This document shows, one piece after another, positions 111 through 62,021 of a stretch of 64,000 nucleotides of DNA. Every line of letters begins with the position of its first letter. Within the stretch, counting starts at the first letter, position 1. The notes beneath the pieces are model-generated. The model ran no database searches. It saw only the letters and a list, made by a program, of their open reading frames with translations, and was not told where the DNA came from. Both the position numbers and the translations under genes were made by a program. This DNA comes from Eledone cirrhosa. Its lineage: Eukaryota. The stretch is from positions 371,938,001 through 372,002,000 of the forward strand of contig OZ024741.1 in NCBI GenBank assembly GCA_964016885.1, read 5' to 3'.

Positions 111-2145
111 CCTGTTAAGAATCATCCTGTTCAGGGTCTTTGCCACAAGTGACGTCAGTGAGATCCCCCCGGTAGTTGTTGGTGTTAGAGAGATCTCCCT
201 TCTTTGGCACTGGGACGATGTTACTGATCCTCCACTGATTCGGGGCAACTCCTTTTTCCAGTGCCCCGTTACAGAACCCCAGGATGATATCATCAAAATC
301 ACACCTCTTCATCACCTCTGATGCCACTCCATCTTCTCCATGATCCTTGCCCTCCTTGATCCTCTTCTTGGCTCTCTGAAGCTCCTCTCAGGTGAAGGGC
401 TCTGTCTCAACATCCAGTTCCTCAAACAGCCGCCTGTAGGGTCCTAAAATGGTCTAGTCATTTCCTCTTCCTATCCTCGGGCCCCGTTCCCTGGATCTGA
501 CTCGAACACCTTCTCTTCCTCCCTGTGATCTCGTTGATGATCATCCAGCTCTCCTTACATCCAGATCTGTCAACCGCTCTCTCCAGACTTCTGATCTTCT
601 CTATCAGTGCCTCCTCTCTGACCTCAGTGTAAGCGGTACAGAGCTCTTCCCTCATCACCTCCATAGTCTCCATCCTCTCCTCCGTAGGATCAGCATAGAA
701 TTGGTCCCTGGCAGCTTTCAGGTGTTCTCTGGCTGCACACACTTTTGGGTTTGCAGAGCTGACGTGCTTCCCTTTATTCTTTTTCCTCGGCACCAGGGCT
801 TCACTTGCTTCCGCCACTGCATTGGTGAAGTGCCCGTACCTCCTCGTCACACTCTCCTCAGTCCATCCAATCTCTCTCTCCTCTGACTCTCCACACAGAG
901 CACTAAAACTGTTTCTCACTTCCACTGTGAACCTCTCCTGTAGCTTATCATCTTCCTTGAAAGCTCCCCAGTCATAGATTGTTCTCCGGGGCTGAGCCTT
1001 GCTCTTTCTTAAGCTCACGCGGACCTCACTCATAACAAGCCGGTGGTCACTACCCAGTGTACTGAAATAGCTGTATGGTTCCGTGTTCAGAACACTATTC
1101 CGCCACTTTTTCCTCACCAGAATGAAATCAATCTGGGACTTGGATAGGTGCATATCTGAGATGTAGGTCCACATCTTCCCCAGATTCTTCCTAAACCTTA
1201 GGTTGGTCGCCATCAAGTTCGCCTCCAGCAGGGTGTCTCTCAGTAGTCTTCCATTTCGGTTGGTGTTGTTATGGAAGTACCAGCAAGGATCTTCACTGCC
1301 CTCCTTACTCAGGTGTGCATTGAAGTCCCCCAAAACAAGCAGGATATTGTGTGCCTGAGTGGTGTTGACAGCTCTACACACCTCCTCATGGAACTCTTCT
1401 GCATTCACATCGCTGTCCCCCTCGGTTGGACTATAGGCTGAGATGACTGTCAGTCTTGGGTTTCCATTGAAGGTCACCCTCAACACTCGCGGGCAGATAG
1501 GCATTATTTCCCTCACCAACAGATTAGTTTTTGCACTGAACACAAAACTCACTCCTCCTACTGCAGCATTTGTTGTGTTCTTCACTGCCGATGTAGTGAT
1601 GAGCTGGCTCTTCTTCCCAATCATGACACTCCTCACGGGTTCATCGTGTAGAATCCTGTGTTCTTGGATCGCAAGTATCTGTATACCACTCTCCTCGAAC
1701 AGATGTCCCAACTCCTCTCTCTTCTCCAGCGTCCGAATAGTCCTCACATTCAAAGTGCCCATATTGATGGCTCTTCTGCAGGACAAAACTGCATTCTTTA
1801 TATTTGTCTCAGAGACAGCTGATCCATCATCCACTGGCCCTCTCTGTGGCTCTAAGCCAGCATAGTCATAACGACCAGGCTGCTCCTTGACAGTGTAATT
1901 AGGGGCTCTAACCCTAGTGCTGTTAGATCGACTCTCCATATTTCTTTTCAATGGTTGACAATACCTTACCGCGCCACTCGAATAAGGTAGTTATTTAACC
2001 CATAAATGGAGCCCTAACAGGTACTACCACCCTGGGCCAGGGTAGACCTGGGAGTCATGACAACTAAGGGGTAACTCCACATTCCCCACATCTCCTGAAC
2101 TCCCGTACTGGAGCCTTGACACTGGATGTAGTTTAATGTCATACC
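111..2145 (-). mobile_element. RTE-clade LINE, inverted 5' half (5' UTR, APE endonuclease, start of RT), disrupted
   Basis: ORF 458-1951 has APE motifs (GTLNVRT, AIQEHR, SAYSPT, LGDFNAH, SQIDFIL, SDHRLV). Frame-disrupted continuation at 111-450 has PVPKKGDLS..NYRG and ends at ILNR against (TA)n. Confidence 0.9.
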
Positions 2146-3375
2146 CAGGATCCAGCCTGAGATGGAGAAGAAGCTCAGGGACAACCAGAACGGCTTCAGA
2201 GAGGGTAGATCAACCACCAGTCACATCCTGATGCTGGGGAGGATATTAGAGGGAGCTAGAGCAAAGTGCCTTCCTGCGGTCATGGTTTTCATTGACTTTA
2301 GGAAGGCCTTTGATTCTGTGGACCGTTACTGCCTGATGAAGATCTTACAGGCTTATGGAATCCCCAAGAAGATAGTGGACCTGATATCACTGCTCTACAC
2401 CAACACCAAAGCCCAAGTCATTACACCTGATGGGATGACAGAGTTCTTTGAGATACTGGCTGGAGTGCTCCAGGGAGATACATTGGCTCCCTATCTTTTT
2501 ATCATCGTAGTGGACTATTGTATGCGCCTTGCACTGGAGAAACACCAGGACTCTGGCTTTACTGTAGCACCGGCTCAGAGCAGGAGAGTTAGGGCGAAAA
2601 AGGTATCGGATGCTGAATTTGCCGACGACATAGTTTTGGTGACAAATAGAGTGAAGGAGGCAGAGGATTTGATGCGGGAGGTTGAGACTGTGTCGATGAG
2701 TGTGGGGCTGAGAATGAATGGGACTAAAACAAAATATCTGGTAGAGAATGTTGAGAAGCCAGAGGGGATCACTAATGTAGGCGGGAAGCCGCTGGAATTG
2801 GTTGAGGACTTCCTGTATTTGGGAGCAAGGATTGGGAATACGGAAGATGATGTGGTTGAGAGGAAGAGCAAGGCCTGGGCGGCGTGCCACAGCTTGAGAT
2901 CGGTGTGGAAGTCGGACCTTCGTAGAGACCTGAAAATCCGCCTCTTCATTGCTGTAGTGGAGTCTGTGCTGCTGTATGGGTCTGAGACTTGGACACTGAC
3001 CAAGAAACTCACTCAGATGGTGGATGGGTGCTACACGAGAATGCTGAGGATGGCTCTGAACATTAATCAGTATACACTGAGGATGAAAAACTCAGAGCTG
3101 TATGGGAGCATCCCAAAAGTCAGCTCAAAAGTGACACAGAGGAGACTGAGGTTGGCTGGACATGCTCACCGACATCCAGAGTTGACATTGCACTCAGTGC
3201 TGCTTTGGGAGCCCCTACATGGACACACTAGACCAAGGTTAACGTATATTGATGCCCTAAGGACAGACACTGGTCTGTTGGAGATGCAGGACATGGCAGC
3301 GATAATCAGGGACAGAGACCGCTGGAGAGAACTCGTCCATGGATCTCGGGAATTTTACCCACCTTAGATAGATAT
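2145..3375 (+). mobile_element. RTE-clade LINE, 3' half (reverse transcriptase) with short (TAGA)n tail
   Basis: ORF 2162-3367 has QNGFREGRST, FIDFRKAFDSV, GVLQGDTLAPYLF, FADD, FLYLG, LLYGSETW and an RTE-type C-terminus. It resumes at (R)IQPEM, where the inverted half stops. Confidence 0.93.
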
Positions 3376-8939: not shown

Positions 8940-10925
8940 GTAAAAGAAAAGAAATTGTCATCCCTTGAATCGCAAGAATATTTTGCAAATTTTGAAGGTG
9001 CCAGCTATCGCAGCCATTTGTAGACTATGAATTAGAGAGCTGCGCTTTTTGTCCGCAAATCCAAGTTCAGTCATACTTTGGTCCAAGCGGGTTGGTATAT
9101 AACCCGTAGCACCAATAATGATGGGTATGAAGCTAAAGGTGTAGCTTGGATACTGGATTTGTAAACTCCTCATCAATAGTCCGTAGATGTCCTCCTTCTC
9201 CTGTATTTTTCTGACAACGTTTACATCAAGTGGGCAGCTGATCTCCACAACAGAACACGTTTTCAATGTGTGGTCCCAAACTACAATATCAGGCCGGTTG
9301 TGCTTTAATTTGGTGGCAGTTTTTATTTTCAGGTTCCACCAGTATTCCTTAGTGCCATCTGTCTCAATATATTCTTCCTCGTTTGTTGTTAATTTTGTTT
9401 TCCGAAGTGCGTTCCAGATGGTTCTAGCTATCCCATCGTGTCTCATGGGGAGGTAGTAGCGAGATGACATTCTTTCGCAGCTGGCAACAATGTGGCTTAC
9501 ATCCTCGATCTTTGTTTTACATAGCCTACATTTATTGTCAGCTACTGGCCCTCCTCTTTTGTGCAGCAGATATTTGTTAGGGAGTTCTTGTTCCTGTATT
9601 GCATAGAGATATCCCTCAAGGTGTGATGTCATAAACTTGTCGGAACTCCATGCCAGGCTTTTTGAGTGGTTTATCCCCTCTATGGTCTGTGTTTTACGCC
9701 TCAAGTATCCATGCACAACTTTTTCTGTAAATTGGTCAATTTTTTTATCTTGTTTGAACATTGAATAGGATCTTCCGATTTCTCTGGGTGAGAGATTTAT
9801 ATCAGGCTTTATTCCATATCTCTCCTCCAGATCAGTCGCTATTCTAATGATATTTCTTTTTTCATGCTCATAAACCTGGGCAAGATGGTTGCCAACCTTT
9901 TTCCTCTGTTGAAGGTGTTGCTTCAGTGTTACTATCTGGGTCTCATATGTTGTTAATATTGATTTTAGGTTAACTTTGCCTTTCATCCTTACGGGGTCGA
10001 TAAAATAAAGTACCAGTAATGCACTGGGTAATTTGCTGGCCTTGTGCCTAAAAGTAGAAACAAATATTGATTTTAGACCCCGGCCACCTTCCTTGCGTGA
10101 GAAGTATAGCCTATCCACATCACCATTGATGTTAAAGTTCCCAGTAACACTGAGAAGTTTGCGAGTTCTAACATCCATCTCACTTAGTTCTTGCAATGAC
10201 CAGTTCAGTAGGCCAAATGTTGGCGTTAGAATTGGCACAGCATAAGTATTGTGGGCAATGTATTTGTTGTATGCTGACAGTTCTGATGACCATATTTTCT
10301 TTACTCTTCTGAGGTATTCAGTTCTGGTTCTCTCCTTATTTATGGGTCCATCATATCTGACATTCTCATCCTGTCCAAGATATCTGTAGTTGTCACCTGA
10401 CTGCAGAGGTTGTATTGTCAGGCTGTTCATCTCTAGATTTCTAGAGGAGGGCACAGCTCTTCCACGTTTTACTGCCAAATATGCACACTTGGACTCACCA
10501 AATTTCATTTTGATGTCGGTTGAAAATTGTGTAATGAGGTTCCATTGTTTCTTGATGTCATTGATATTTGGCCCATACAACTTCAGGTCATCAACAAAGA
10601 AAAGATGGGAGATACTTCTGGGCCCACTTCTTTGTCCACCTTGTTTCCTGAGTAGGTAAGATAGTGGATTCAGTGAGAGAACGAAGAGTAGCACTGACAA
10701 GCTATTACCCTGAAAGATGCCCTTCTGGTAATGTATCTTATCAGTCTTAACCTGCTCCTTCTCACCTCTAAGGATCAAATTGGTGTACCAGTTCTTGGTC
10801 AGGCGTTCAACAGCAGCTACCAATGGTTGTGGGACTTTAGCTAACTGTAAAGCCTTAATAATCCACCCATGAGGTACACTATCGAATGCTTTTTGATAGT
10901 CCAGCCACACGACAGTCATGTTTCT
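8940..10925 (-). mobile_element. 5'-truncated non-LTR retrotransposon with RT and restriction-like endonuclease (R4/Dong-like)
   Basis: WLDYQKAFDSVPH, GIFQGNSLS, HLFFVDDLKLY, YRYLG; C-terminal CCHC knuckle (CRLC..HIVASC), RHD, RPDIVV..VEISCP; flanked by (TA)n. Confidence 0.9.
9969..10062 (+). mobile_element. 5'-truncated Nin/Deu-type SINE inserted in the LINE ORF
   Basis: gcctttcatccttacggggtcgataaaataaagtaccag core; TSD aatattgattttag at 9955-9968 and 10063-10076. Confidence 0.88.
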
Positions 10926-11189
10926 GCGATTCTTTGTTGTTTTTTGCCTGAGTATGTATGTAAATGTATATATATATGTATATATGTATGTATATATATA
11001 TATAAAGGTTTACATATATATATATATATAAAGTCATAAATATATATGTTTTGCAACGGGTCACTTTGTGGCTCAATGAAGAATTAATAAATTAAATAAT
11101 CAGAGCTATATATCATAAAACATTTATCTGGCGATTCTATAGACATGTTTTATGATATGTATATATATATATGTATATATATATATAAA

Positions 11190-12470
11190 TACAATATATT
11201 AATAAATACAATATATTAATAAATGGAAACTATATTTATAAAACCATAATTATTTTATTATATATATTTCAAGGGCAACCAAGGTAAATTATAGTGCGCT
11301 TTCTTCAGATAAAACACAGATTTGTTTTATAAATAAATATTGATATACCCGGAAAAAAGACATTAATACATCTTAATAAATTTTTTAAATACTTATTTTT
11401 GTAATATATCTTATTGTAATTAATTAAATTTTAATTAAATTTTTAATTAAATTATAACAATATTCTTTTGTAAACATTTTTTATCATTAATTTAATTTTT
11501 TAACTTTACCTTTATAAATAATATAAACATAGCATAATGAACGATATATTTACATTGTGACTACTCATCCATGTAAAATTTATTTCTTCGCTCACTTCGC
11601 CCCTCTTTCTCTTTCTCTTTCTTCTCTCTCCCTCTTTTTTTTCAATTTTTTTTTCAATATTCTTTTCTTTCTCCCTCTCAATTCTTTTTCCTTTCTCTCT
11701 CCATCTCAATATTTGTTCTTTCCTTCACTCTCTCTCAATATTATGTCTTTTCTCGGCGGTGGATTGGCAGTATCGGTAGAGGGTCGGACGCCATGCTTTC
11801 CAGCGTAGTTACGTCCCTTTACCATCTGAGTTCAAATCCCGCCGAGGTTGACTTTGCCTTTCATCCTTACGGGGTCGATAAAATAAAGTACCAGTAATGC
11901 ACTGGTAATTGCTGGCCTTGTGCCTAAAGTAGAAACAATATTATGTCTTTTCTCTTTTTTCTTCTATCTCTTTTTCTTTCTCTTTCTATTCTCTTCTCTC
12001 TCCCATTTCATAATTCTCTCTCCCTCCCTTTCAATATATTGTTTCTCTCTATCTCTCTTCCTCTCAATTTTTTCTCTTTATTTCTCTCCCTCTCAATTTT
12101 TTGTCTCTCTCCCTTTTACATCTATTTTTGTCTCTCTCCCTTTTACATCTATTTTGTCTCTCTCCCTTTTACATCTATTTTCTTCCAATAGTTTAATTTA
12201 AATAAACCGTTGTTTTTTTCAATTTTTCCGACACTCATTTGCATACTCACTCACTAATTTGTATCACCCTCAATTATCTCCACTATCCAGCGAATTTCAA
12301 CCGTTGAGCTTGTCTTTTTTCCGGGTATGTCAATATTTATTTATAAAACAAATCTGTATTTTATCTGAAGAAAGCGCACCATAATTTACCTTGGTTGCCC
12401 TTGAAATATATATAAAATAATTATGGTTTTATAAATATAGTTTCCATTTATTAATATATTGTATATTTAC
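11190..12470. mobile_element. PLE 3' UTR/pseudo-LTR with inverted duplicate; HHRs at 11253-11314 (-) and 12359-12420 (+)
   Basis: 11190-11355 is the reverse complement of about 12320-12470. HHR reads ttttat CTGAAGA..GAAA tatata TA ataaaa. Downstream tail matches 22390-22430. Confidence 0.75.
11755..11942 (+). mobile_element. tRNA-derived SINE with Nin/Deu-like core
   Basis: A-box-like tggcagtatcgg, B-box gagttcaaatcc, conserved core; six related copies in the window. Confidence 0.88.
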
Positions 12471-12569: not shown

Positions 12570-15283
12570 CTAGCAGTTTAGCCCGGCGTTGCTCGGGTTT
12601 GTTCATTTGCTATGAAAAGTTACATACAGGTAAACGTGGTTTGAAAGCGAATAAGCTTATCAATTAAGTGCATAAAGCAGTTGAACCGGTTATTAAAAGT
12701 TACGAACCAATTAGCATTTTGGTCAATCAATGATGGGTTAATAATCCTCCAATAGCGAATTTAGTAGACCAAAGTTGCAAGATGGTGGCCCTGATGCCGC
12801 TGGGTGTCAGATCTGTCCGCCATGGGATACCCTACCAGGAAATGGTGTTCCAGACGGCATAGCTCCAACACCTGCACCAACATCTATAGCACCTCTTTGT
12901 AGACGATATTGCGTGTCATCCCTTGAGGAATGTAAGCAAAAAGTCCATTCCTGCTCCCTGCGCGGGAACAGGCAACATAAAGTTGGCCATGGGAGAAGCA
13001 TGGTTCCTCCAAATGGATGCCCGCCACCGACAATGTTTGCCCTTTTGACTTGTTAATGGACATGGCAAAACATGGTCTCACCGGGAATTGGGATCGTCGG
13101 AAATAGAACGGGATATCTGACGCCGAAGGGAAAAGGTTCATCCTTAGAATGAAAACATTCTCCCCTCTTCCGCACCCCGTTACAATGGTGGCCTCAATCA
13201 AGTGGGTGTCAGTGACTTGACGACCATGCGAGTACCGTTGCACTGCTTTTTGTGGACGCAAGTTCCTTATTAGCATAATGGGACAGCCAACCCTAAGCTT
13301 AATAATGTGAGGTGGGAGCCCTGGGGGCTCAAGGAGATTTAATAACTCAACCGGATAATTAACGATATCGTCGGGGTCTGATTTGAAGATGTGCTCTTTA
13401 CCGGGAATTCTTCTCAATCAGCTGCTCGTTAATAAAATTAACCATGGTATTTTTCGGAGCAAGGATGACTCTTTCGCTGAGCCAATCGAGGTTTTTAAAG
13501 TTAGATGAGACATTAGGAAAAACTGCTTCCCAAAGGTCAGAAGGGCTGCTCACAATGTTGCACAGAGTGTCGATTGCTATGCCGCCCTTGTCATCCGCAG
13601 GGATCTTGCCCTCACCAAGTGCTAAAATGTTCTGTGCTGCAGACATGTTGTCACCATGCAAATTAGCACGCATATTTGTGCTCAGGTACAAATTATTCAC
13701 CTGGAGCCACAACATGGACGACTTAAGACAGGCACACACTTCATCAGCTCTTGTCCATTTGGGGATGACAGGCAGCGTTTTCCGAAAATCAAATGATAGC
13801 AGAAGGGTTACGCCACCCATAGGAGCCGTAGAATCCCTAATGTCTTTCCGGGCCCTGTCCAATGCCTCAAGGGCACCCTTGTGTGCCATTGTGCACTCAT
13901 CCCAAACAATGAGGCAACATCTTTTGAGAACCAGAGCTTTGTGTGAACTCTTGCTGATATTGCATGTTGGTGTCTCAGTTTTTACTAAATCCAAAGGGAG
14001 TTTAAAGGTTGAATGTGCTGTCCTGCCTCCCGGCAGCAAAGTAGCAGCGATCCCAGACGATGCAACGGACAACGCAACTTTTTTCTCCTGACGAATCTTA
14101 GCGAGAATCAAATTCGATACAAAAGTTTTTCCGGTACCCCAGGGGCGTTTTTTATTGGGGGGATCCGGGGGTTTTTTTTACCTTGAGGTATAACCAGTCA
14201 GTAGTTCCTTCAAAGGCTCTGGCGGTTCCGGAAGAGGGGGCAAGGTGACGTTACCGTTTAAGCAGCACATTGCAGGTGGCTCCCCAGCCCACTTTGTAGC
14301 ATTGCAGAATTGGCAATTGAAGCGCATCTCGCCTATATTTATGTCAGAGCGCATCGAGTAATTAACGTTTTGCTCATACTTGAAAGCCCGTAGGTGCCAG
14401 TATGGGCTGTTCGGGCTCGTCACACCGCGTGCAGCTTCTCGCCGTCGACTGTTACGCTTGAACGTAGAACATTGGTCGTGTGGTTGGTGGGAAGGTCTGA
14501 CAGCAATAGCAGAAGCAACATTTGCAATGCTAATGGACCACCCGTCTGCATCTTCAGAAGCCATGGAAGTAGTCATAGCCGCAACGTCCGTAGGAAGGCG
14601 AGCCGTCCGTTGTTTTAAACGTTCCAAAGACCTGGAAGCAGCATTAGTCGCAGCGTTTCTAGCCAGGCGCTTCGACCTTTGTTCACGGCTCTCTGAAGCC
14701 CTGGAAGAAGCCTGGTATGAAACCATTTTGGCTAGGCGTGCGGTGCGCTGTTGGAAACTTTCAGCGGCTCGACATTCTGCTGAATATAAGGCTGTCTGTG
14801 AAAGTCTTGAAGCATTTTCCTGAGAGGACTCGTTTGCTATAGTAGCCTTTTGCGCCACTGCTGACGCGGTATGTCGACTGAGGCGACTTCTCTTTTTAGG
14901 TGGCATTTTATGTCCAAAGGAAAGGGTGAAAGTTACTTCTACAGAAAAATTGACTTTGAAAGTCTATTGTCTGTTTATGAATATTGTTATTGTTGTTGTG
15001 ATACAAATGTTAGTAAGTAAATGGGTATCGAAAAATAAAGGGTGAAAGTTACTTCAACATAAAAATTGACTTTGAAAGTATAAGGCTGATAATTGAATGT
15101 AAAAAGATTGATAAGAAAGCCCCCCCCCCCCCCCCCAAAAAAAATGTACAGGTATTTGTATGTATGTGTGTATTTTTATGTCGAAAAAAAAGGGTTAAAG
15201 TTACTTCTACAGAAAAATATAGTTTGAAAGTGTAAGGCCGATGTTTGTGTAAATTAAGTGACAGGTATTTGTATGTATGTGTG

Positions 15284-18890: not shown

Positions 18891-22440
<3,550 letters not shown>

Positions 22441-27215: not shown

Positions 27216-27276
27216 TTCTATTATATATATTTCGAAGGTACTGTGCTGTTTTTCAGTACATCCTCATCAGATAAAA
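27216..27276 (-). ncRNA. Type I hammerhead
   Basis: ttttat CTGATGA ggatgtactg..cagtaccttc GAAA tatata TA atagaa. Confidence 0.72.
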
Positions 27277-36060: not shown

Positions 36061-36262
36061 ACATATATTATATATACCATCTATCTTTGCCAGTTTAATC
36101 CATTACATTCAAGCGGAATATTCTAAAGTTTTTACAAATATTTATATATTCCAGAAAATACTAAATAGATTTTATAACAACTTAAAAGCTATCTCCAGGA
36201 AGAGGAAAACGCAGGGGGAAAAGGAAGAAGAGGATATTGGCATATTCCTTTAGCGCCGATAC

Positions 36263-37345
36263 ATGGAAAATAAAACGATAAAGGATATTCTAGAAAAAAT
36301 AAACGATGAAACCCTAATTTTTAATGCACCTATATTTATCTACATTGTACTATGTATGGTACTTGGCACACTTGGAAACTGCGCGGTAACTTATATATAT
36401 TATCGAAAATTGAAGAAAACAGCGATAAATATGTTTGTGGCATATCTTGGTCTATGTGATTTATTAACCTGTGTAGTTTATATGCCTTTTGATATTGTTT
36501 CCCTAAGATTCACGTTTACCTTTAGCAATGAAGTCACTTGTCATACGAAACACTTTCTGTTAAATGTAGGGACTATTTGTTCAGGACAGATTATCTTCTT
36601 TATAGCAATAGAAAGATATATTCGCGTGTGTCATCCTTTTCGCAATCATTTATCTCGCAGCAAAGCAATAATGGCGGTACCAATGATATTTCTTTTCACC
36701 ATATTAATAAGCATACCAACACTTTGGGTTTATGGCAGCATATCCATGAAGAGTCCTAGAGAAGAAGTTGAAACTGAGACTTGTTCCTTTTATGAGAACG
36801 AAGTTCTTTTAATGTTCGCTTTGCTTTATTATAGTATATTGTTAATTATTAATTGTTTAGTTTTTATCGTTCTCATGATACTGTATTACCGTATTGCACT
36901 CTGTATTTTGAAATATAAGAAAAATATGATGAAAGATTTAATGGATATCATATCACCTTCGAATCAATCTCCAGCTATTAGAGGATCAATTGATGTTGAT
37001 GAAAACGTACATACCAGTAAATGCCAAATGAAACCACAAATGCTTGAGCAGGTAACTGAAGCGTTTAAAGAAAAAGAAAAAGTAATTAAAAAAACAAACA
37101 TAATATTTTTTATAGTCACCGTGATCTGGATGATTAGCTATCTGCCTCATTACATTTCAAGTATATGGGTAATTCTTCACAACCACCTACATCCTGAGAA
37201 CAACATTAAATATATTTTCTACGGATTAACAAGTCGTTCGTTCTTTGTGAGCTGCGTTGCTAATCCCTGTATTTATGGACTTTTCAATAATCAGTTTCGA
37301 CAGGAACTCTATACGTTACTTTTTAATATGTTTTGCCGTAATTAA
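36263..37345 (+). CDS. Rhodopsin-family (class A) GPCR, neuropeptide-receptor-like orphan, intronless CDS, 360 aa
   Basis: Seven hydrophobic segments; GTLGN (TM1), LGLCDL..P (TM2), IAIERY..VCHP (TM3), WMISYLP (TM6), NPCIYG..N..FR (TM7/H8); extracellular Cys pair; uninterrupted frame. Confidence 0.93.
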   Translation: MENKTIKDILEKINDETLIFNAPIFIYIVLCMVLGTLGNCAVTYIYYRKLKKTAINMFVAYLGLCDLLTCVVYMPFDIVSLRFTFTFSNEVTCHTKHFLLNVGTICSGQIIFFIAIERYIRVCHPFRNHLSRSKAIMAVPMIFLFTILISIPTLWVYGSISMKSPREEVETETCSFYENEVLLMFALLYYSILLIINCLVFIVLMILYYRIALCILKYKKNMMKDLMDIISPSNQSPAIRGSIDVDENVHTSKCQMKPQMLEQVTEAFKEKEKVIKKTNIIFFIVTVIWMISYLPHYISSIWVILHNHLHPENNIKYIFYGLTSRSFFVSCVANPCIYGLFNNQFRQELYTLLFNMFCRN

Positions 37346-38787: not shown

Positions 38788-39300
38788 AATTAGTATATCT
38801 ACCAACATATATATACAGATGCATACCTATGCTAGCAAATATATAGGTTTTGTGTTAGTAACTTTGTGGTTCAATGCAAGGGGATGCAGAACAATTATAT
38901 GAAAGACATAAAATAAGAAAATTATAAAAATTAACTTACTTACTAAAATTTGACTCCAACTAATTAGTTTCTGAAAGGGAATAAACATGGTTTCCGAACG
39001 GAACAACATGGAGAAAATCCTTTCGTCATCAGGAAGTCTATTCTCAGCTAAGTTCCCAGGCAATGCGTGGACACAGGGAACTTATACAAAAATAATTCAG
39101 TGGCTGGAAAAAAGCAAGCGAGGACTAAATTCCAGGATATTGAAAAAATCACTGCCTACTTGGTCGGTGGCAAATTCAAAAGTATCAATCACGTGACATC
39201 GAGGTTAATCAGTGAGGAGTGGGGTGCTAATAAGACAGTAATTAGTTGGAGTGAAATTTTAGTAAGTAAGTTAATTTTTATAATTTTCTTATTTTACGTC

Positions 39301-42652: not shown

Positions 42653-43312
42653 TGAGGGGTAAGGTGTGAGTGTATGTACAAGTCAACCAACATAGGTCTT
42701 TTTATTTCTAAACTCTCTAAGTATTTGACTCTTACCATAATTTTCAGTTTTATCACCCCACATAAATTCCTCAATTTGTATGTGTGGATGTGTGTGTGTG
42801 TCTGTGGGAGTGGGTGTGAATGTATGTGCAAGTCAACCAACATAAGTCTTTTTATATGTAAATTTTCTAGTATTCTGCTCTAACCATATTTTTCAGTAGT
42901 ACCACCCTACATAAATTCCTCAATTTAAGAATGACCTGTAGTATCGAATTTCATTCTATAAACCCCAATTTAATATATATCTGACCAGGAATGCTTTTTG
43001 TGAAAATCAGTCATATGGAACTATTGTCATCTTGCCTGGTGGTTTGAACTTTACAACACCACCTGCCAACCCTACTAGCATCTACAAACTGACCAATGAG
43101 AATTAAGATTATTCCTGCTGACAACATTAAATTATTCCTAACAAGCTCATATGTCCCAAGGCTCTGATACAATCAACACCATAAACACAGAGCTGGCATA
43201 TCTAAGAACTGACTAACTGCCTGATGAGGTTATAACCACTCAATGGCTATCATCGAAATATATATAGCAGTAAATAAAGGATTATGAGTTCATGCAATTG
43301 ACTTATGTTTCG
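41440..43312 (+). mobile_element. Neptune-like PLE 3' fragment: GIY-YIG ORF, long 3' UTR, terminal HHR
   Basis: SCNFRDPSLCPL..CMTKNVVYRC..YIGST..DRWYNH..CNICLSE..CRH; HHR at 43216-43271. Confidence 0.85.
43216..43271 (+). ncRNA. Type I hammerhead at PLE 3' end
   Basis: actgc CTGATGA ggttata..tatcatc GAAA tatata TA gcagt, then AATAAA. Confidence 0.8.
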
Positions 43313-52600: not shown

Positions 52601-52806
52601 AATGTACAGCATTTACTTTGGAGATCAGACGACTTGAGGATGTTGATGGAGGTGGAGGAGAAAAGCTTAACTGAATAATTGAATCTTATTCGCTGATTTT
52701 TGCCCTTTTCGCCACGCTTTCCTCACTTTTATCTGCAGGAGTTTTCGATAAAACCTGTCTAATGAGGTTTGTTTTATCCTCGACCTCAGAATGTTTCTGA
52801 AATGAG

Positions 52807-52848
52807 TTAGGGTTAGGGTTAGCGTTACGGTTAGGGTTAGAGTTAGGG
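52807..52848 (+). repeat. Interstitial telomeric repeat (TTAGGG)7, partly degenerate
   Basis: ttaggg ttaggg ttagcg ttacgg ttaggg ttagag ttaggg inside the Tigger ORF. Confidence 0.85.
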
Positions 52849-54559
52849 TCTTTAAATAGCGCCGTAGCACACCCAGTTGCAATTTTTTCTGGGTGATTCG
52901 TTTAATAAAGTCCGAAAGTTTCTCCCACATTCCCAATATTTCCTTCATCTCACTTGTAGAGATAACATCCTCCGTGTCACCTACTTCCTGCAAAACCTCC
53001 ATGTGCTGCTGCGTCTGTAGCTCATTTAGATCCTCCGTTGTCAGTTCCTCGGAGTGCTCCTCGATGAGCTCGTTGATGTCACCTTCATCCATGTCCAGAC
53101 CCATGGACTTGCCGAGGGATACAATCTCCTCCACCACTGCCGCTTCGGGTTCGAGCCTTTCAAAGACCGTGTCAGACACAACCTCAGGCCACTGCTTCTT
53201 CCACGCAGAGGTCAAGGTCCTCTTTGTAACACCCTGCCAGGCCATATCGATAATTCTGAGGCATATCACGATGTTATAGTGGCCCTTCCAGAACTCTCGA
53301 AGGGTGAGGTTTGTGCTCTCCGTCACCTCAAAGCAGCGGCGGAACAAGTGCTTGGTGAAATGGTTCTTGAAATTAGAAATCACCTACTGTTCCGTGGGTT
53401 GCAGGATAGGGGTGGTGTTGGGTGGAAGGTAGATAACCTTTATAAACTTGAACTCTTAGAGGTTAGGTGGGTGAGCAGGTGCATTGTCCAGGATGAGAAG
53501 GGTTTGCAGGGGCAGGTTATTTTCCTTAACATCAAAACCAGAGACCAAATTCACCCACACCACAAAGATTGCCTGGCGACCCACCCCCTCGGTTTGCCCT
53601 CCACACATCCTGCAGTTTTTTTCTTTCAGAATCTTATGTGACTTAAAGGCTCTGGCGTTTTCCGAATGATAAACGAGCAGCGGCTTAATCTTACAGTCGC
53701 CGCTCGCATTGGCACACAGTGTGAGGGTTAACCTATCTTTCGTGGTTTGTGGCCTGGCATCCTCTTCTCTGCCGTTATATAAGCCCTCCTTGGCATCTTC
53801 TTCCAAAAAAGTCCTGTCTCATCAAAGTTGAAGACATGCTGAGGGATGTCTGCTTTGGCTGCTATAATTCCGGCAAAGATTTTGAGGTAATCCTCAGCTG
53901 CCTCCATATCCGCAGTCATTGCCTCACCATGCCTGACAACAGAGTGAATGCCGGTCCTCCTTTTAAAATTCTCGAACGAGCCCCGACTGGCTTTAAACGG
54001 TTTGCCCGATGCCTCGTCCGTCGAAGTACCTGGGGTCTGCTGCAGCAAATCAGCGTAAATAGCTTGTGCCTTCACGCAGATTATAGTCTCTGTCACGGTA
54101 TCCCCTGCGAGCTGCTTCTCCGTCAACCACGCTATAGATAGATGTCCGCTGTTTAGAAATTATTTTAACTCCCTTGGCTGGCGTTATAGCCTTTATCGAT
54201 TCCCTCTGCTTCAGTATGGTGCAGATCGTAAAAGTGCTACACTCGTACTGCTTCGCCAAGTCGACTACACGCATGCTATGGTCGTTTTTCGATAATGTCT
54301 TTCTTTAATTTAATGCACATCATCCGCTTCTTCTCACCACTGTCCTTCGCGCTCATTTTCTTCGGACCTATGGGATGCTGGGCGGATGTTACGGCGTTCA
54401 CTGTGGCGATCGCTACGCCAACTAGCGGAGGGATATCTAAAGCTGGCTCGTAACCCGAATTTTAGCTCGCAACTGAAAGAAAAATATCGGCCGAGAGACG
54501 GCTCGTATCTCGAAACACTGGTTAGTTGCGACACTCGTAAGTCAAGGAACCACTGTATA

Positions 54560-60870: not shown

Positions 60871-60924
60871 TATATACACACACAGCCACAGATAAAAAAA
60901 TAAAAATAAATATATATATATGAA

Positions 60925-61622
60925 TAGTATTTTTCTTCAAGCATAGCTTTATACAAATATGTATAGAAATTTCGTATTTCTAAAGAAACACGGTTTTAGG
61001 AAGCCATAGCTATGCAAACACCGGGGATAACACCCTCTCGTGGTGTCCAGCAGAAGCATGGGGGACAACCGTCTATGCATTTCAGGCTTGACTGGCCTTC
61101 GTCAGGACGGTCCCTTCCACTGCTTGCTACTGATGGACTTGAAAACAGTCGTGAATATATAGTTTTCTTGTCTGTATAAATGAGATGATTAATCTCATTT
61201 GCATATGAAGCTGCATAAGTTGGCTCAACTTATAATAAAAAAGAAATAGGATTTCGCGTCAAGCATAGCGTTATACAAATATGTATAGGAATTTCCTATT
61301 TCTAAAGAAGCATGGTTTTAGTAAGCCATAGCTATGCAAACACCGAGGCTAACGCCCTCTGGTCATTATTCTATTATAAGTTGAGCCAACTTATGCAGCT
61401 TCATATGCAAATGAGATTAATCACCTCATTTACACAGACGAGAAAACTATATATTCTCGACTGTTTTCAAGTCCAGCAGTAGAAAGTGGTGGGAGGGACC
61501 ATTCTGACGAAAGCCAGTCAAGCTTGAAATGCATAGACGGTTGTCCCCCTTGCTTCTGCTGGACACCACCAGAGGGCGTTAGCTCAGGTGTTTGCATAGC
61601 TACGGCTTCCTAAAACCGTGAT
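60925..61622. repeat. 322-bp tandem HHR unit plus inverted copy (family F); HHRs 61068-61111 (-) and 61498-61541 (+)
   Basis: accgtc CTGACGA aggc-cagtcaa-gcct GAAA tgca TA gacggt; aagcatagc at 60939 and 61261. Confidence 0.85.
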
Positions 61623-62021
61623 TCTTTAGAAATACGAAATTTATATATATATATATACAGATGAAAGTTCAGATTATCGAATCTCTGGCTGCAGCTAAGC
61701 TAACGAATGCAATCGAAATGTGTAGCTAAGCACTCAATAAGGTATTTTACCTTAGAGTAATAACATTACGTTTAAGCAGCTTTTCAAATTGAAGATTGTG
61801 TCCAGCAAGCCAGTCGCAGGGACTATATATATATATATATATAATTCAAGAAAGAAGATTGACACGGTTCGCTATACAATAAGGGCTTTATTCACATTGC
61901 TGACAATTGTTTCTTTGATCTGGCAGGTCTAGAGTTCGCTATACGCCTGATTTTACGCCAACCAATATATATATGGGAGATGGGACTTTCCGTCTTTCCG
62001 TTGTTAATTATATATATATAT

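What the first reader, a model, noticed from the sequence alone, without database searches (positions are those of the whole stretch)
60925..61622. 322-nt unit (family F) with the cleanest minimal hammerhead, in tandem plus inverted layout
Seen: 6-bp stem I accgtc/gacggt, intact CTGACGA, stem II aggc/gcct (aagc/gctt in the inverted copy, a compensatory change), ATGCAT stem III and AUA cleavage triplet. The size fits known animal non-LTR retrozymes. This is the best single candidate for an activity test.
Basis: partly seen in the sequence, partly recalled or inferred. Interest (0 to 1): 0.72.

Follow-up and report, generated by a model that had tools for sequence, protein, structure and literature searches.

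The report
Hammerhead retrozyme inserted by Penelope machinery
This is one old, two-armed insertion of a 322-base non-coding jumping repeat found thousands of times in this animal genome; it carries a predicted self-cutting hammerhead RNA motif and was likely copied in by a Penelope-type retrotransposon enzyme, so it is a new family of a known kind, not a new mechanism.

Summary
A 322-nt unit lies as 1.37 direct copies (60922-61363, minus sense) abutting an inverted copy (61369-61657). Each arm has one hammerhead motif with the CUGANGA and GAAA boxes, helices I and II, a palindromic AUGCAU helix III and an AUA site.

The layout is not a satellite. The unit is a dispersed family: at least 3114 first-look candidates and 1734 exact hits of a 16-nt 3' word.

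In an unbiased sample of 63 insertions:
- 33 are head-to-head two-armed.
- The 3' ends fall in two fixed classes 31 nt apart, and 21 of 33 two-armed insertions have one of each.
- 5' ends vary, and 70 of 83 ends abut (TA)n.

These are the published hallmarks of Penelope-like element (PLE) insertion. The family is therefore an animal non-LTR retrozyme, that is a non-autonomous PLE derivative.

- The "compensatory" AAGC/GCTT pair is a singleton (1 of 100 listed copies).
- Covariation among copies is weak.
- Rfam models do not score the motif.
- No arm ends at the predicted cut site (0 of 83).
- This locus has one hammerhead per strand, so it cannot release a unit RNA.

Cleavage is untested, no RNA run was available, and no autonomous partner was found. 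Earlier notes of this scan describe the same kind of element in this genome for other families, not this one.

The parts
60922..61363 (-). Tail-bearing arm: 1.37 units of the 322-nt repeat. In element coordinates (E1 = unit position 21; the unit is window 61260..60939 read on the minus strand) it runs from E200 of the upstream unit to E319. Its 3' end is at 60922.
   Evidence: Direct repeat D1, spacing 322. The layout reappears in 30 genome loci. Coordinates mapped.
61067..61112 (-). Hammerhead motif identical to the commonest family form. CUGACGA is at 61105-61099, helix II plus its loop at 61098-61084, GAA at 61083-61081 and AUGCAU at 61080-61075. The predicted cut is 3' of A61074.
   Evidence: 94 of 100 listed genome copies carry this same 32-mer; shuffle control.
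60922..60949 (-). 'Tail': the stretch between the two alternative 3' ends of the family (E292-E319 here). It is present on this arm only.
   Evidence: The 3' ends of sampled arms fall at E319-322 or E281-292; 21 of 33 two-armed insertions carry one of each.
60950..60965 (-). Hairpin B (UAUACA-UAUU-UGUAUA, E276-291). The tail-less class of 3' ends (mode E291) stops at its last base.
   Evidence: MFE fold of the unit; end classes; coordinates.
60973..60992 (-). Hairpin A (E249-268), an 8-bp predicted stem. Subfamilies change the loop, and one pair goes from U-A to U.G.
   Evidence: fold; variant copies seen; coordinates.
61364..61368 (.). Head-to-head junction where the 5' ends of the two arms meet.
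   Evidence: D1 ends at 61363, I1 starts at 61369. In 33 sampled two-armed insertions the gap between arms is mostly -4 to +5 nt.
61369..61657 (+). Inverted, tail-less arm, about E1 to E289. Recognisable unit sequence fades into TA repeat after 61642.
   Evidence: Inverted repeat I1, 289 nt, 91%.
61497..61542 (+). Second hammerhead motif, decayed. Helix I has an A:C mismatch, helix II is AAGC/GCUU, and the predicted cut is 3' of A61535.
60905..60921 (.). Left (TA)n-rich target flank.
   Evidence: 49 of 55 tail ends in the sample abut (TA)>=4 within 40 nt.
61643..61660 (.). Right (TA)n target flank.
   Evidence: 21 of 28 tail-less ends in the sample abut (TA)>=4.

Best explanation
The region 60922-61657 is a single head-to-head insertion of a dispersed 322-nt non-coding repeat that carries an intact minimal type I hammerhead motif. 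It was likely written into a (TA)n microsatellite by the reverse transcriptase-endonuclease of a Penelope-like element (PLE), which would have primed cDNA synthesis on both ends of the break.

Shown here:
- The family has thousands of copies.
- Every copy has one of two fixed 3' ends, 31 nt apart. Each end lies at the 3' edge of a predicted small hairpin.
- 5' ends are variable and often lie more than one unit away.
- About half of the insertions are two-armed, usually with one 'tail' end and one 'short' end.
- The flanks are (TA)n.

Inferred from published PLE biochemistry (PMC11167929):
- The two 3' ends are two internal start sites of reverse transcription on the element's RNA.
- Both DNA strands are cut and extended.
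- The two cDNAs meet head to head.

Inferred about the template and the ribozyme:
- Arms run through the hammerhead site and past one unit length, so the template was uncleaved multimeric RNA or a religated unit circle, not a hammerhead-cut linear monomer.
- The hammerhead is predicted to cut only when two motifs pair through the AUGCAU palindrome, or with protein help.
- Its likely role is to process rare multi-unit transcripts into unit RNA that a host ligase could circularise.

This particular locus is an old, dead copy. Its arms differ by 9%, and it has one hammerhead per strand.
For: Family size and spread:
- At least 3114 first-look candidates; the 40 scored are 91-94% identical over the full unit and lie on many contigs.
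- 1734 exact hits of a 16-nt 3' word against 0 for the control.
- 133 exact hits of the 32-nt hammerhead core against 0 for the control.

Anatomy, in an unbiased sample of 60 loci taken from the first listed 16-mer places:
- 63 insertions: 33 two-armed head-to-head and 30 one-armed.
- Of 96 arms, 83 have a defined 3' end, at E319-322 or E281-292.
- 21 of 33 two-armed insertions are tail plus short, 1 is tail plus tail, and 11 have one unclear end.
- Arm lengths run from 38 to 738 nt.

Target: (TA)>=4 lies within 40 nt of 49 of 55 tail ends and 21 of 28 short ends.

Published match:
- Partial tandems, an adjacent inverted 5'-truncated copy, a 30-40 bp tail at one end only, microsatellite/(TA)n bias and hammerheads in pLTRs are described for PLEs (PMC8557442, passages).
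- Two adjacent internal RT start sites define the tail, both strands are cleaved and extended, and hammerhead mutants do not change insertion (PMC11167929, main text read).
- Retrozymes are reported as PLE derivatives (10.64898/2026.07.22.740005; abstract, Introduction and first part of Results read).

RNA features:
- The unit RNA folds well below shuffles (-96.9 against -69.4 +/- 4.7 kcal/mol, z -5.9). Helix I is extended by flanking pairing, and three hairpins lie at the 3' module.
- Variants shared by at least 8 of 87 hammerhead rows lie only at a CpG, at N7, at position 10.1 and in loop 2, which are positions that hammerheads tolerate. The 87 rows include 4 duplicates of the same places.
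- Arms of one insertion share rare variants more often than random arms: 42 of 550 against 936 of 41437.
Against: - No autonomous partner was found. 30 loci with the best GIY-YIG matches (of 10595 first-look candidates, 150 scored) show no real similarity to the unit and no hammerhead by my descriptor. 18 fetched of 20 places with a variant 3' module were all copies of this same family.
- Rfam hammerhead models give no hit.
- Dispersed copies show no purifying selection on the core. Mutated fraction is 6.8% in the core and 4.4% in the flanks, and the core is intact in 55 of 87 rows.
- Covariation is weak.
- 0 of 83 arms end at the predicted cut site and 65 of 83 read through it. The genome therefore gives no trace that the ribozyme ever cut a template.
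- Only 4 of 83 arms hold two whole hammerheads, so few loci could release a unit RNA.
- In this window's own insertion the two arms share 0 rare variants out of 28.
- Sampling was anchored on a word that starts at E291, so insertions with no tail-bearing arm were not sampled.
Confidence: 0.8

Rival explanations
1. The copies are 5'-truncated ends (solo pseudo-LTRs) of a longer autonomous Penelope-like element, not a separate non-coding family.
For: Hammerheads sit in the pLTRs of PLEs, and most genomic motifs are truncated PLE remnants (PMC4209133, text read). The genome has 10595 GIY-YIG first-look candidates.
Against: Arms longer than one unit wrap directly from E1 into the tail of the previous unit, with no ORF between. 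This is seen in this window, in many of the 30 loci, and in arms up to 738 nt. No coding sequence adjoins the unit in 90 loci. The best GIY-YIG loci have no similarity to the unit.
Confidence: 0.07
2. It is a SINE-like element mobilised by a LINE, and the inverted arm arises by twin priming.
For: LINE reverse transcriptase ORFs are common, including in this window. 5' truncation is also a LINE feature.
Against: Both arms carry the element's 3' end facing outward, whereas twin priming inverts the 5' part only. There is no poly(A). The two fixed 3' ends 31 nt apart, with one of each in 21 of 33 two-armed insertions, and the (TA)n target match the PLE footprint (PMC8557442, PMC11167929).
Confidence: 0.06
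3. It is a plain tandem or foldback DNA repeat, and the hammerhead-like motif is there by chance or is a dead relic with no catalytic role in this family.
For: There is no Rfam hit, covariation is weak, and no cDNA ends at the cut site. Published work questions whether hammerheads help PLEs at all (PMC8557442 passage; PMC11167929: mutants insert normally).
Against: On the 'chance' part: 0 hits in 100 shuffles; the motif is the commonest form of a family with thousands of copies; and subfamily-level variants avoid core and pairing positions. On the 'plain DNA repeat' part: the copies are dispersed, have fixed 3' ends and are 5'-truncated. The 'relic' part is not excluded.
Confidence: 0.07

Closest known systems
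Animal non-LTR retrozymes (Cervera and de la Pena 2020, PMC7229834; Li, Clavereau and Pollet 2026 preprint 10.64898/2026.07.22.740005)
   Same: A non-coding unit of a few hundred nt with low GC (40%). It has one type I hammerhead per unit, with a 6-bp helix I, a 4-bp helix II and a 1-2 bp helix III with a palindromic loop. It shows more-than-unit copies and is proposed to depend on PLEs.
   Different: The published examples are defined as tandem arrays, from dimers to large multimers, that are expressed as circular RNA. Here nearly all copies are dispersed and shorter than 2.3 units, and only 4 of 83 arms hold two hammerheads. Expression could not be examined.
Penelope-like element insertions and their minimal hammerheads (Cervera and de la Pena 2014, PMC4209133; Craig et al. 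2021, PMC8557442; Frangieh et al. 2024, PMC11167929)
   Same: Partial tandem, an adjacent inverted 5'-truncated copy, a 30-40 nt tail on one side, an AT-rich/(TA)n target, and a hammerhead with palindromic helix III positions expected to act as a dimer. The two 3' ends match the two internal RT start sites reported.
   Different: There is no RT/GIY-YIG ORF and the unit is only 322 nt. Helix II is short (4 bp), unlike the 7-8 bp typical of the Schistosoma min-HHRs. The base of helix II is A-U, or U.U in one subfamily, rather than the conserved G10.1-C11.1. The start sites here sit at AU-rich hairpins rather than the AC-rich stem loop of the anole element.
Amphibian satellite hammerheads (newt satellite 2; axolotl HHR_Amex1/2, PMC7229834 passages)
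   Same: A unit of about 330 nt. Helix III is a single or double pair capped by a palindromic loop. A U.U at the base of helix II is described for HHR_Amex2. These cleave efficiently only as dimers.
   Different: The amphibian ones form very large tandem arrays with conserved loop 1-loop 2 contacts. No such array was seen in the places I examined, and tertiary contacts could not be assessed.

Membership tests
Hammerhead ribozyme, type I with minimal palindromic helix III | Core boxes CUGANGA and GAA, then A15.1...U16.1 and H17 (not G), in this order, with helix I open | tested here: met
   CUGACGA, GAA, AUGCAU, A17 on the minus strand at 61112..61067. The plus-strand copy has the same boxes.
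Hammerhead ribozyme, type I with minimal palindromic helix III | Helices I and II formed by Watson-Crick or wobble pairs | tested here: met
   Helix I has 7 pairs and helix II has 4. 93.4% of 1071 cells are paired over 83 distinct copies, against 12-50% when partners are slid.
Hammerhead ribozyme, type I with minimal palindromic helix III | Covariation that supports the helices | tested here: inconclusive
   5 double-changed cells against 2.0 +/- 1.4 in shuffles, reached by 23 of 500. The helix II double change is one copy of 100 listed. The copies are neutrally decaying repeats, so little signal is expected.
Hammerhead ribozyme, type I with minimal palindromic helix III | Score against curated covariance models (Rfam hammerhead families) | tested here: not met
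   No hammerhead family appears at gathering score in the window, at E<=10 in 1 kb, or at E<=10 in 81 nt. A near-absent helix III is a likely reason, but that is my inference.
Hammerhead ribozyme, type I with minimal palindromic helix III | Site-specific self-cleavage | not testable with these tools
   This needs transcription assays. Genomic cDNA ends give no trace of it (0 of 83 arms end at E165-171).
Animal non-LTR retrozyme | Non-coding unit of about 170-400 nt with low GC | tested here: met
   322 nt, GC 40.4%, longest open frame 77 codons in a three-unit concatenate.
Animal non-LTR retrozyme | Tandem repeats with a hammerhead in every unit | tested here: inconclusive
   Copies are partial tandems. 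4 of 83 arms hold two whole hammerheads. No long array occurs among the 100 listed places or the 100.
Animal non-LTR retrozyme | Expression as linear and circular unit-length RNA | not testable with these tools
   No RNA run was listed. The three runs laid are contigs of unknown library kind.
Penelope-like-element-type insertion (non-autonomous derivative) | Fixed 3' end, variable 5' truncation, more-than-unit partial tandems | tested here: met
Penelope-like-element-type insertion (non-autonomous derivative) | Adjacent inverted 5'-truncated copy, head to head | tested here: met
   33 of 63 sampled insertions, 8 of 30 in the first set, and this window.
Penelope-like-element-type insertion (non-autonomous derivative) | 30-40 nt tail present at one end only | tested here: met
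   The ends fall at E319-322 and E281-292, 31 nt apart. 21 of 33 two-armed insertions have one of each and 1 has two tails.
Penelope-like-element-type insertion (non-autonomous derivative) | AT-rich or (TA)n target | tested here: met
   70 of 83 ends abut (TA)>=4 within 40 nt.
Penelope-like-element-type insertion (non-autonomous derivative) | Sequence shared with the end of an autonomous PLE of the same genome | tested here: inconclusive
   None was found in 30 GIY-YIG loci out of 10595 candidates, nor in 18 variant-module places. The search is far from exhaustive.

The most novel reading that the evidence does not exclude
The thousands of insertions of this family are a fossil record showing that a Penelope-type enzyme copies a covalently closed 322-nt RNA circle. 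The circle is made by hammerhead cutting and host ligation. Copying starts at two hairpin-marked sites and proceeds from both ends of a (TA)n break. The ribozyme's job would then be to make the circle, never to define a cDNA end. This would explain why arms run past one unit, why none stops at the cut site, and why so few genomic loci can themselves give a unit RNA.
Probability: 0.3. Interest if true: 0.6.

Novelty: new member of a known kind. Interest (0 to 1): 0.35.

Why it matters
This family adds a clean, high-copy example to the recent claim that animal retrozymes are passengers of Penelope-like elements. Its copies give countable evidence from a genome, not from a test tube:
- two start sites 31 nt apart, each at the edge of a small hairpin;
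- two-sided priming;
- read-through of the ribozyme site.

These counts parallel the one in vitro study of a PLE (PMC11167929). The family also gives a compact natural substrate (322 nt, with a 38-nt 3' module shared with a second non-coding family) for asking what a PLE enzyme recognises, and whether the minimal hammerhead needs a partner motif or protein to cut.

It does not reveal a new kind of element.

Tried and rejected
- RNA evidence: the look-up of sequencing runs listed no RNA holder. The three runs laid (one sample, one study, library kind unknown, contigs only) gave thousands of short repeat contigs and chance joints, and nothing usable on expression, RNA ends or circles.
- Rfam: no hammerhead hit at any setting.
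- Autonomous partner, three tries. (b) 30 best GIY-YIG loci: the 13-nt matches downstream of the endonuclease domain turned out to be CA/TA-rich coincidence. (c) 20 genome places with a variant 3' module, 18 fetched: all were copies of this same family with a changed hairpin B loop.
- Test for hammerhead-cut templates: 0 of 83 arm 5' ends fall at E165-171, against about 1.8 expected if ends were uniform. The idea that a cut linear monomer is the template was dropped.
- First single-HSP mapping: it broke at poly-C expansions and at the cut of my segments, and was replaced by chained mapping.
- Search by sequence in the scan's earlier findings: nothing for this unit.
- Paper searches for this family or for retrozymes in the animal group suggested by earlier notes found no specific description. 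Supplements were not opened, and preprint supplements are closed, so a listing of this family there cannot be excluded.
- I did not test the identity of the organism.

Full report
**What is in the window**

- Bases 60923-61041 and 61245-61363 are direct repeats spaced 322 nt apart (88% identical).
- Bases 60952-61240 pair with 61369-61657 as a 289-nt inverted repeat, 91% complementary.
- Read on the minus strand, 61112..61067 spells gaccgtc-CUGACGA-aggc-cagucaa-gccu-GAA-augcau-A-gacgguu. This is a type I hammerhead layout with a 6-bp helix I plus one G.U pair, a 4-bp helix II, a helix III reduced to the palindrome AUGCAU, and an AUA site. The predicted cut is between 61074 and 61073.
- The inverted copy carries the same boxes on the plus strand (core at 61504-61535). 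Its helix II is AAGC/GCUU, and its helix I has an A:C mismatch.
- The family-specific pattern has 2 matches in the window and none in 100 shuffles. A strict descriptor finds 1 hit in the window and none in 100 block shuffles; a relaxed one finds 4 against 0.
The true extent is 60922-61657.

**What speaks against a simple 'clean ribozyme' reading**

- No Rfam family reaches its gathering score in the window.
- No hammerhead model appears at E<=10 in 1 kb or in 81 nt around the motif.
- The 'compensatory' helix II pair is a single case. Of the 100 listed of 133 exact genome matches, 94 are AGGC/GCCT, 4 are AAGC/GCCT, 1 is AGGC/GCTT, and 1, this window's inverted copy, is AAGC/GCTT.
- Over 83 distinct copies, 93.4% of cells pair. 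Only 5 cells changed on both sides, against 2.0 +/- 1.4 in shuffles, a value reached by 23 of 500 shuffles.
- The dispersed copies decay without sparing the core. The mutated fraction is 6.8% in the core and 4.4% in the flanks. The core is intact in 55 of 87 rows, and the core plus all helices in 28. The 87 rows include 4 duplicates of the same places.
- This is what dead copies of a repeat should look like. It says nothing either way about the source copies.
- One modest point in favour: the only variants shared by at least 8 rows lie at a CpG in helix I, at N7 (C to A, 11 rows), at position 10.1 (A to U, 12 rows) and in loop 2 (C to U, 40 rows). Hammerheads tolerate change at these positions. 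A U.U at the base of helix II is described for an axolotl retrozyme hammerhead (PMC7229834, passage).

**The unit is a dispersed family**

- A search of the 3.0-Gb genome gave 3114 first-look candidates. The 40 scored are 91-94% identical over the full unit and lie on many contigs.
- A 16-nt word from the 3' part has 1734 exact hits against 0 for the reversed control.
- In the 30 best loci every copy ends at the same 3' sequence, followed by (CT)n and/or (TA)n, while the 5' end varies. 8 of the 30 have a head-to-head inverted arm.

**An unbiased sample**

I fetched the first 60 clusters of places listed for the 16-mer and mapped them to the unit with chained BLAST hits. In element coordinates E1 is unit position 21, and the unit is window 61260..60939 read on the minus strand.

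- The 60 loci hold 63 insertions: 33 two-armed head-to-head and 30 one-armed.
- 83 of 96 arms have a clear 3' end, at either E319-322 ('tail') or E281-292 ('short', mode E291).
- 21 of the 33 two-armed insertions have one end of each kind, 1 has two tails, and 11 have one unclear end.
- The two arms usually abut within -4 to +5 nt.
- (TA)>=4 lies within 40 nt of 49 of 55 tail ends and 21 of 28 short ends.
- The window's insertion is a typical case. Its minus-sense arm runs from E200 of the upstream unit to E319 (442 nt, with tail). Its plus-sense arm runs from E1 to about E289 (no tail). Both lie between TA repeats.
- A caveat on sampling: the anchor word starts at E291, so insertions with no tail-bearing arm were not sampled.

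**Comparison with print**

- Partial tandems, an adjacent inverted 5'-truncated copy, a 30-40 bp tail often at one end only, a microsatellite/(TA)n bias and hammerheads in the pseudo-LTRs are the described structure of Penelope-like elements (PMC8557442, passages).
- The in vitro study of an anole element (PMC11167929, main text) found that:
  - the protein cuts and extends both DNA strands;
  - reverse transcription starts at two adjacent internal sites in a stem loop;
  - the tail is the sequence between those two sites;
  - hammerhead mutants insert normally;
  - the hammerhead cut only when protein was present.
- Minimal hammerheads with palindromic helix III positions are reported in PLE repeats, are expected to work as dimers, and have low activity in vitro (PMC4209133, text parts 1-2).
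- Animal non-LTR retrozymes are 170-400 nt units with type I hammerheads, expressed as circular RNA (PMC7229834, abstract and passages).
- A 2026 preprint argues that retrozymes derive from PLE pseudo-LTRs (10.64898/2026.07.22.740005; abstract, Introduction and first part of Results).
- Family F fits this picture: 322 nt, 40% GC, and a longest open frame of 77 codons in a three-unit concatenate.

**How it most likely works**

- Shown: there are two fixed 3' ends. E291 is the last base of a predicted hairpin (UAUACA-UAUU-UGUAUA, E276-291). E319-322 follows a second small hairpin (E308-320). A third hairpin, 8 bp, lies just upstream.
- Shown: the unit RNA as a whole folds well below shuffles (z -5.9), and helix I is lengthened by flanking pairing.
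- Inferred: these two ends are the two start sites of a PLE reverse transcriptase, used on the two sides of a break in a (TA)n tract.
- Shown: 65 of 83 arms read through the predicted cut site, 6 cross it twice, and none has its 5' end at E165-171. Arms reach 738 nt, or 2.3 units.
- Inferred: the template was not a hammerhead-cut linear monomer. It was either uncut multimeric RNA or a religated unit circle. Only 4 of 83 arms hold two whole hammerheads and could yield a unit RNA by double cleavage, so a circle copied round and round is attractive, but it is not shown.
- Shown: arms of the same insertion share rare variants more often than random arms do (42 of 550 positions with a rare variant, against 936 of 41437). 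This fits one template or one subfamily per event. In this window's insertion the arms share none of 28.

**What I could not settle**

- Expression: no RNA run was listed, and the three runs laid are contigs of unknown kind that show only repeat fragments.
- A second non-coding family of about 550 nt shares only the last 38 nt or so (E285-322) with this one. This suggests that the 38-nt module is what the enzyme recognises. That is an inference.

**Verdict**

- The finding is a real member of a known kind: a hammerhead-bearing, PLE-dependent non-coding retroelement. It is seen here as one old, dead, two-armed insertion.
Its covariation argument fails, the layout is an insertion footprint and not an array, and a monomer transcript is predicted to cut poorly.
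- Earlier notes of this scan describe the same kind of element and footprint for other families of this genome (units of about 310, 460-470 and 615 nt).

Noticed in passing
window 22327-22391 (+), 43216-43271 (+), 27216-27276 (-), 11251-11316 (-), 38952-39038 (-): There are further hammerhead-like motifs of other, unrelated sequence. Four have an AUAUAUAU or AUAUGUAU palindromic helix III and a longer helix II. They probably belong to other ribozyme-bearing repeat families.
   Followed up: no
L031 1349-1950 (minus strand); also L009, L023, L088: A second non-coding repeat of about 550 nt, with no CUGANGA box, ends in the same last ~38 nt as this family (hairpin B 3' half plus tail). In L009 and L023 it directly precedes a copy of the 322-nt unit.
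   Followed up: partly
window 61660-62020: Three short unrelated segments are each separated by (TA)n runs. They look like further small insertions into the same microsatellite. From about 62020 there is a LINE-like C-terminal coding remnant.
   Followed up: no
G000 C1:143348607-143966192: Copies of the unit recur at about 59-kb spacing, at 7 or more places on the same strand. This suggests a large tandem segmental duplication that carries one copy each.
   Followed up: no
several loci, e.g. L050, L064, L070, L076, L087 near E213-215: The CCCC run of the unit has expanded to poly-C tracts of 12 or more bases in several independent copies.
   Followed up: no
L006, L014, L019, L025, L027, L030, L059, L073 (3' ends): A (CT)n run sits between the element's ...AUUUCU end and the (TA)n flank in some copies: 6 of the 30 loci, and 2 of 55 tail ends by the strict test. 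It could be slippage at the start of copying or later microsatellite growth.
   Followed up: partly
window 458-1990 (-), 2132-3367 (+), 8958-11009 (-), 13398-14177 (-), 36254-37345 (+), 52804-52849: LINE endonuclease and reverse transcriptase remnants, a PIF1-helicase (Helitron-like) ORF, an intron-less rhodopsin-family receptor ORF of 363 codons, and a short (GTTAGG)n telomere-like run.
   Followed up: no
whole genome G000: 10595 first-look candidates for the GIY-YIG domain; all 150 scored pass the Pfam cut-off. Penelope-like elements are therefore very abundant here.
   Followed up: partly
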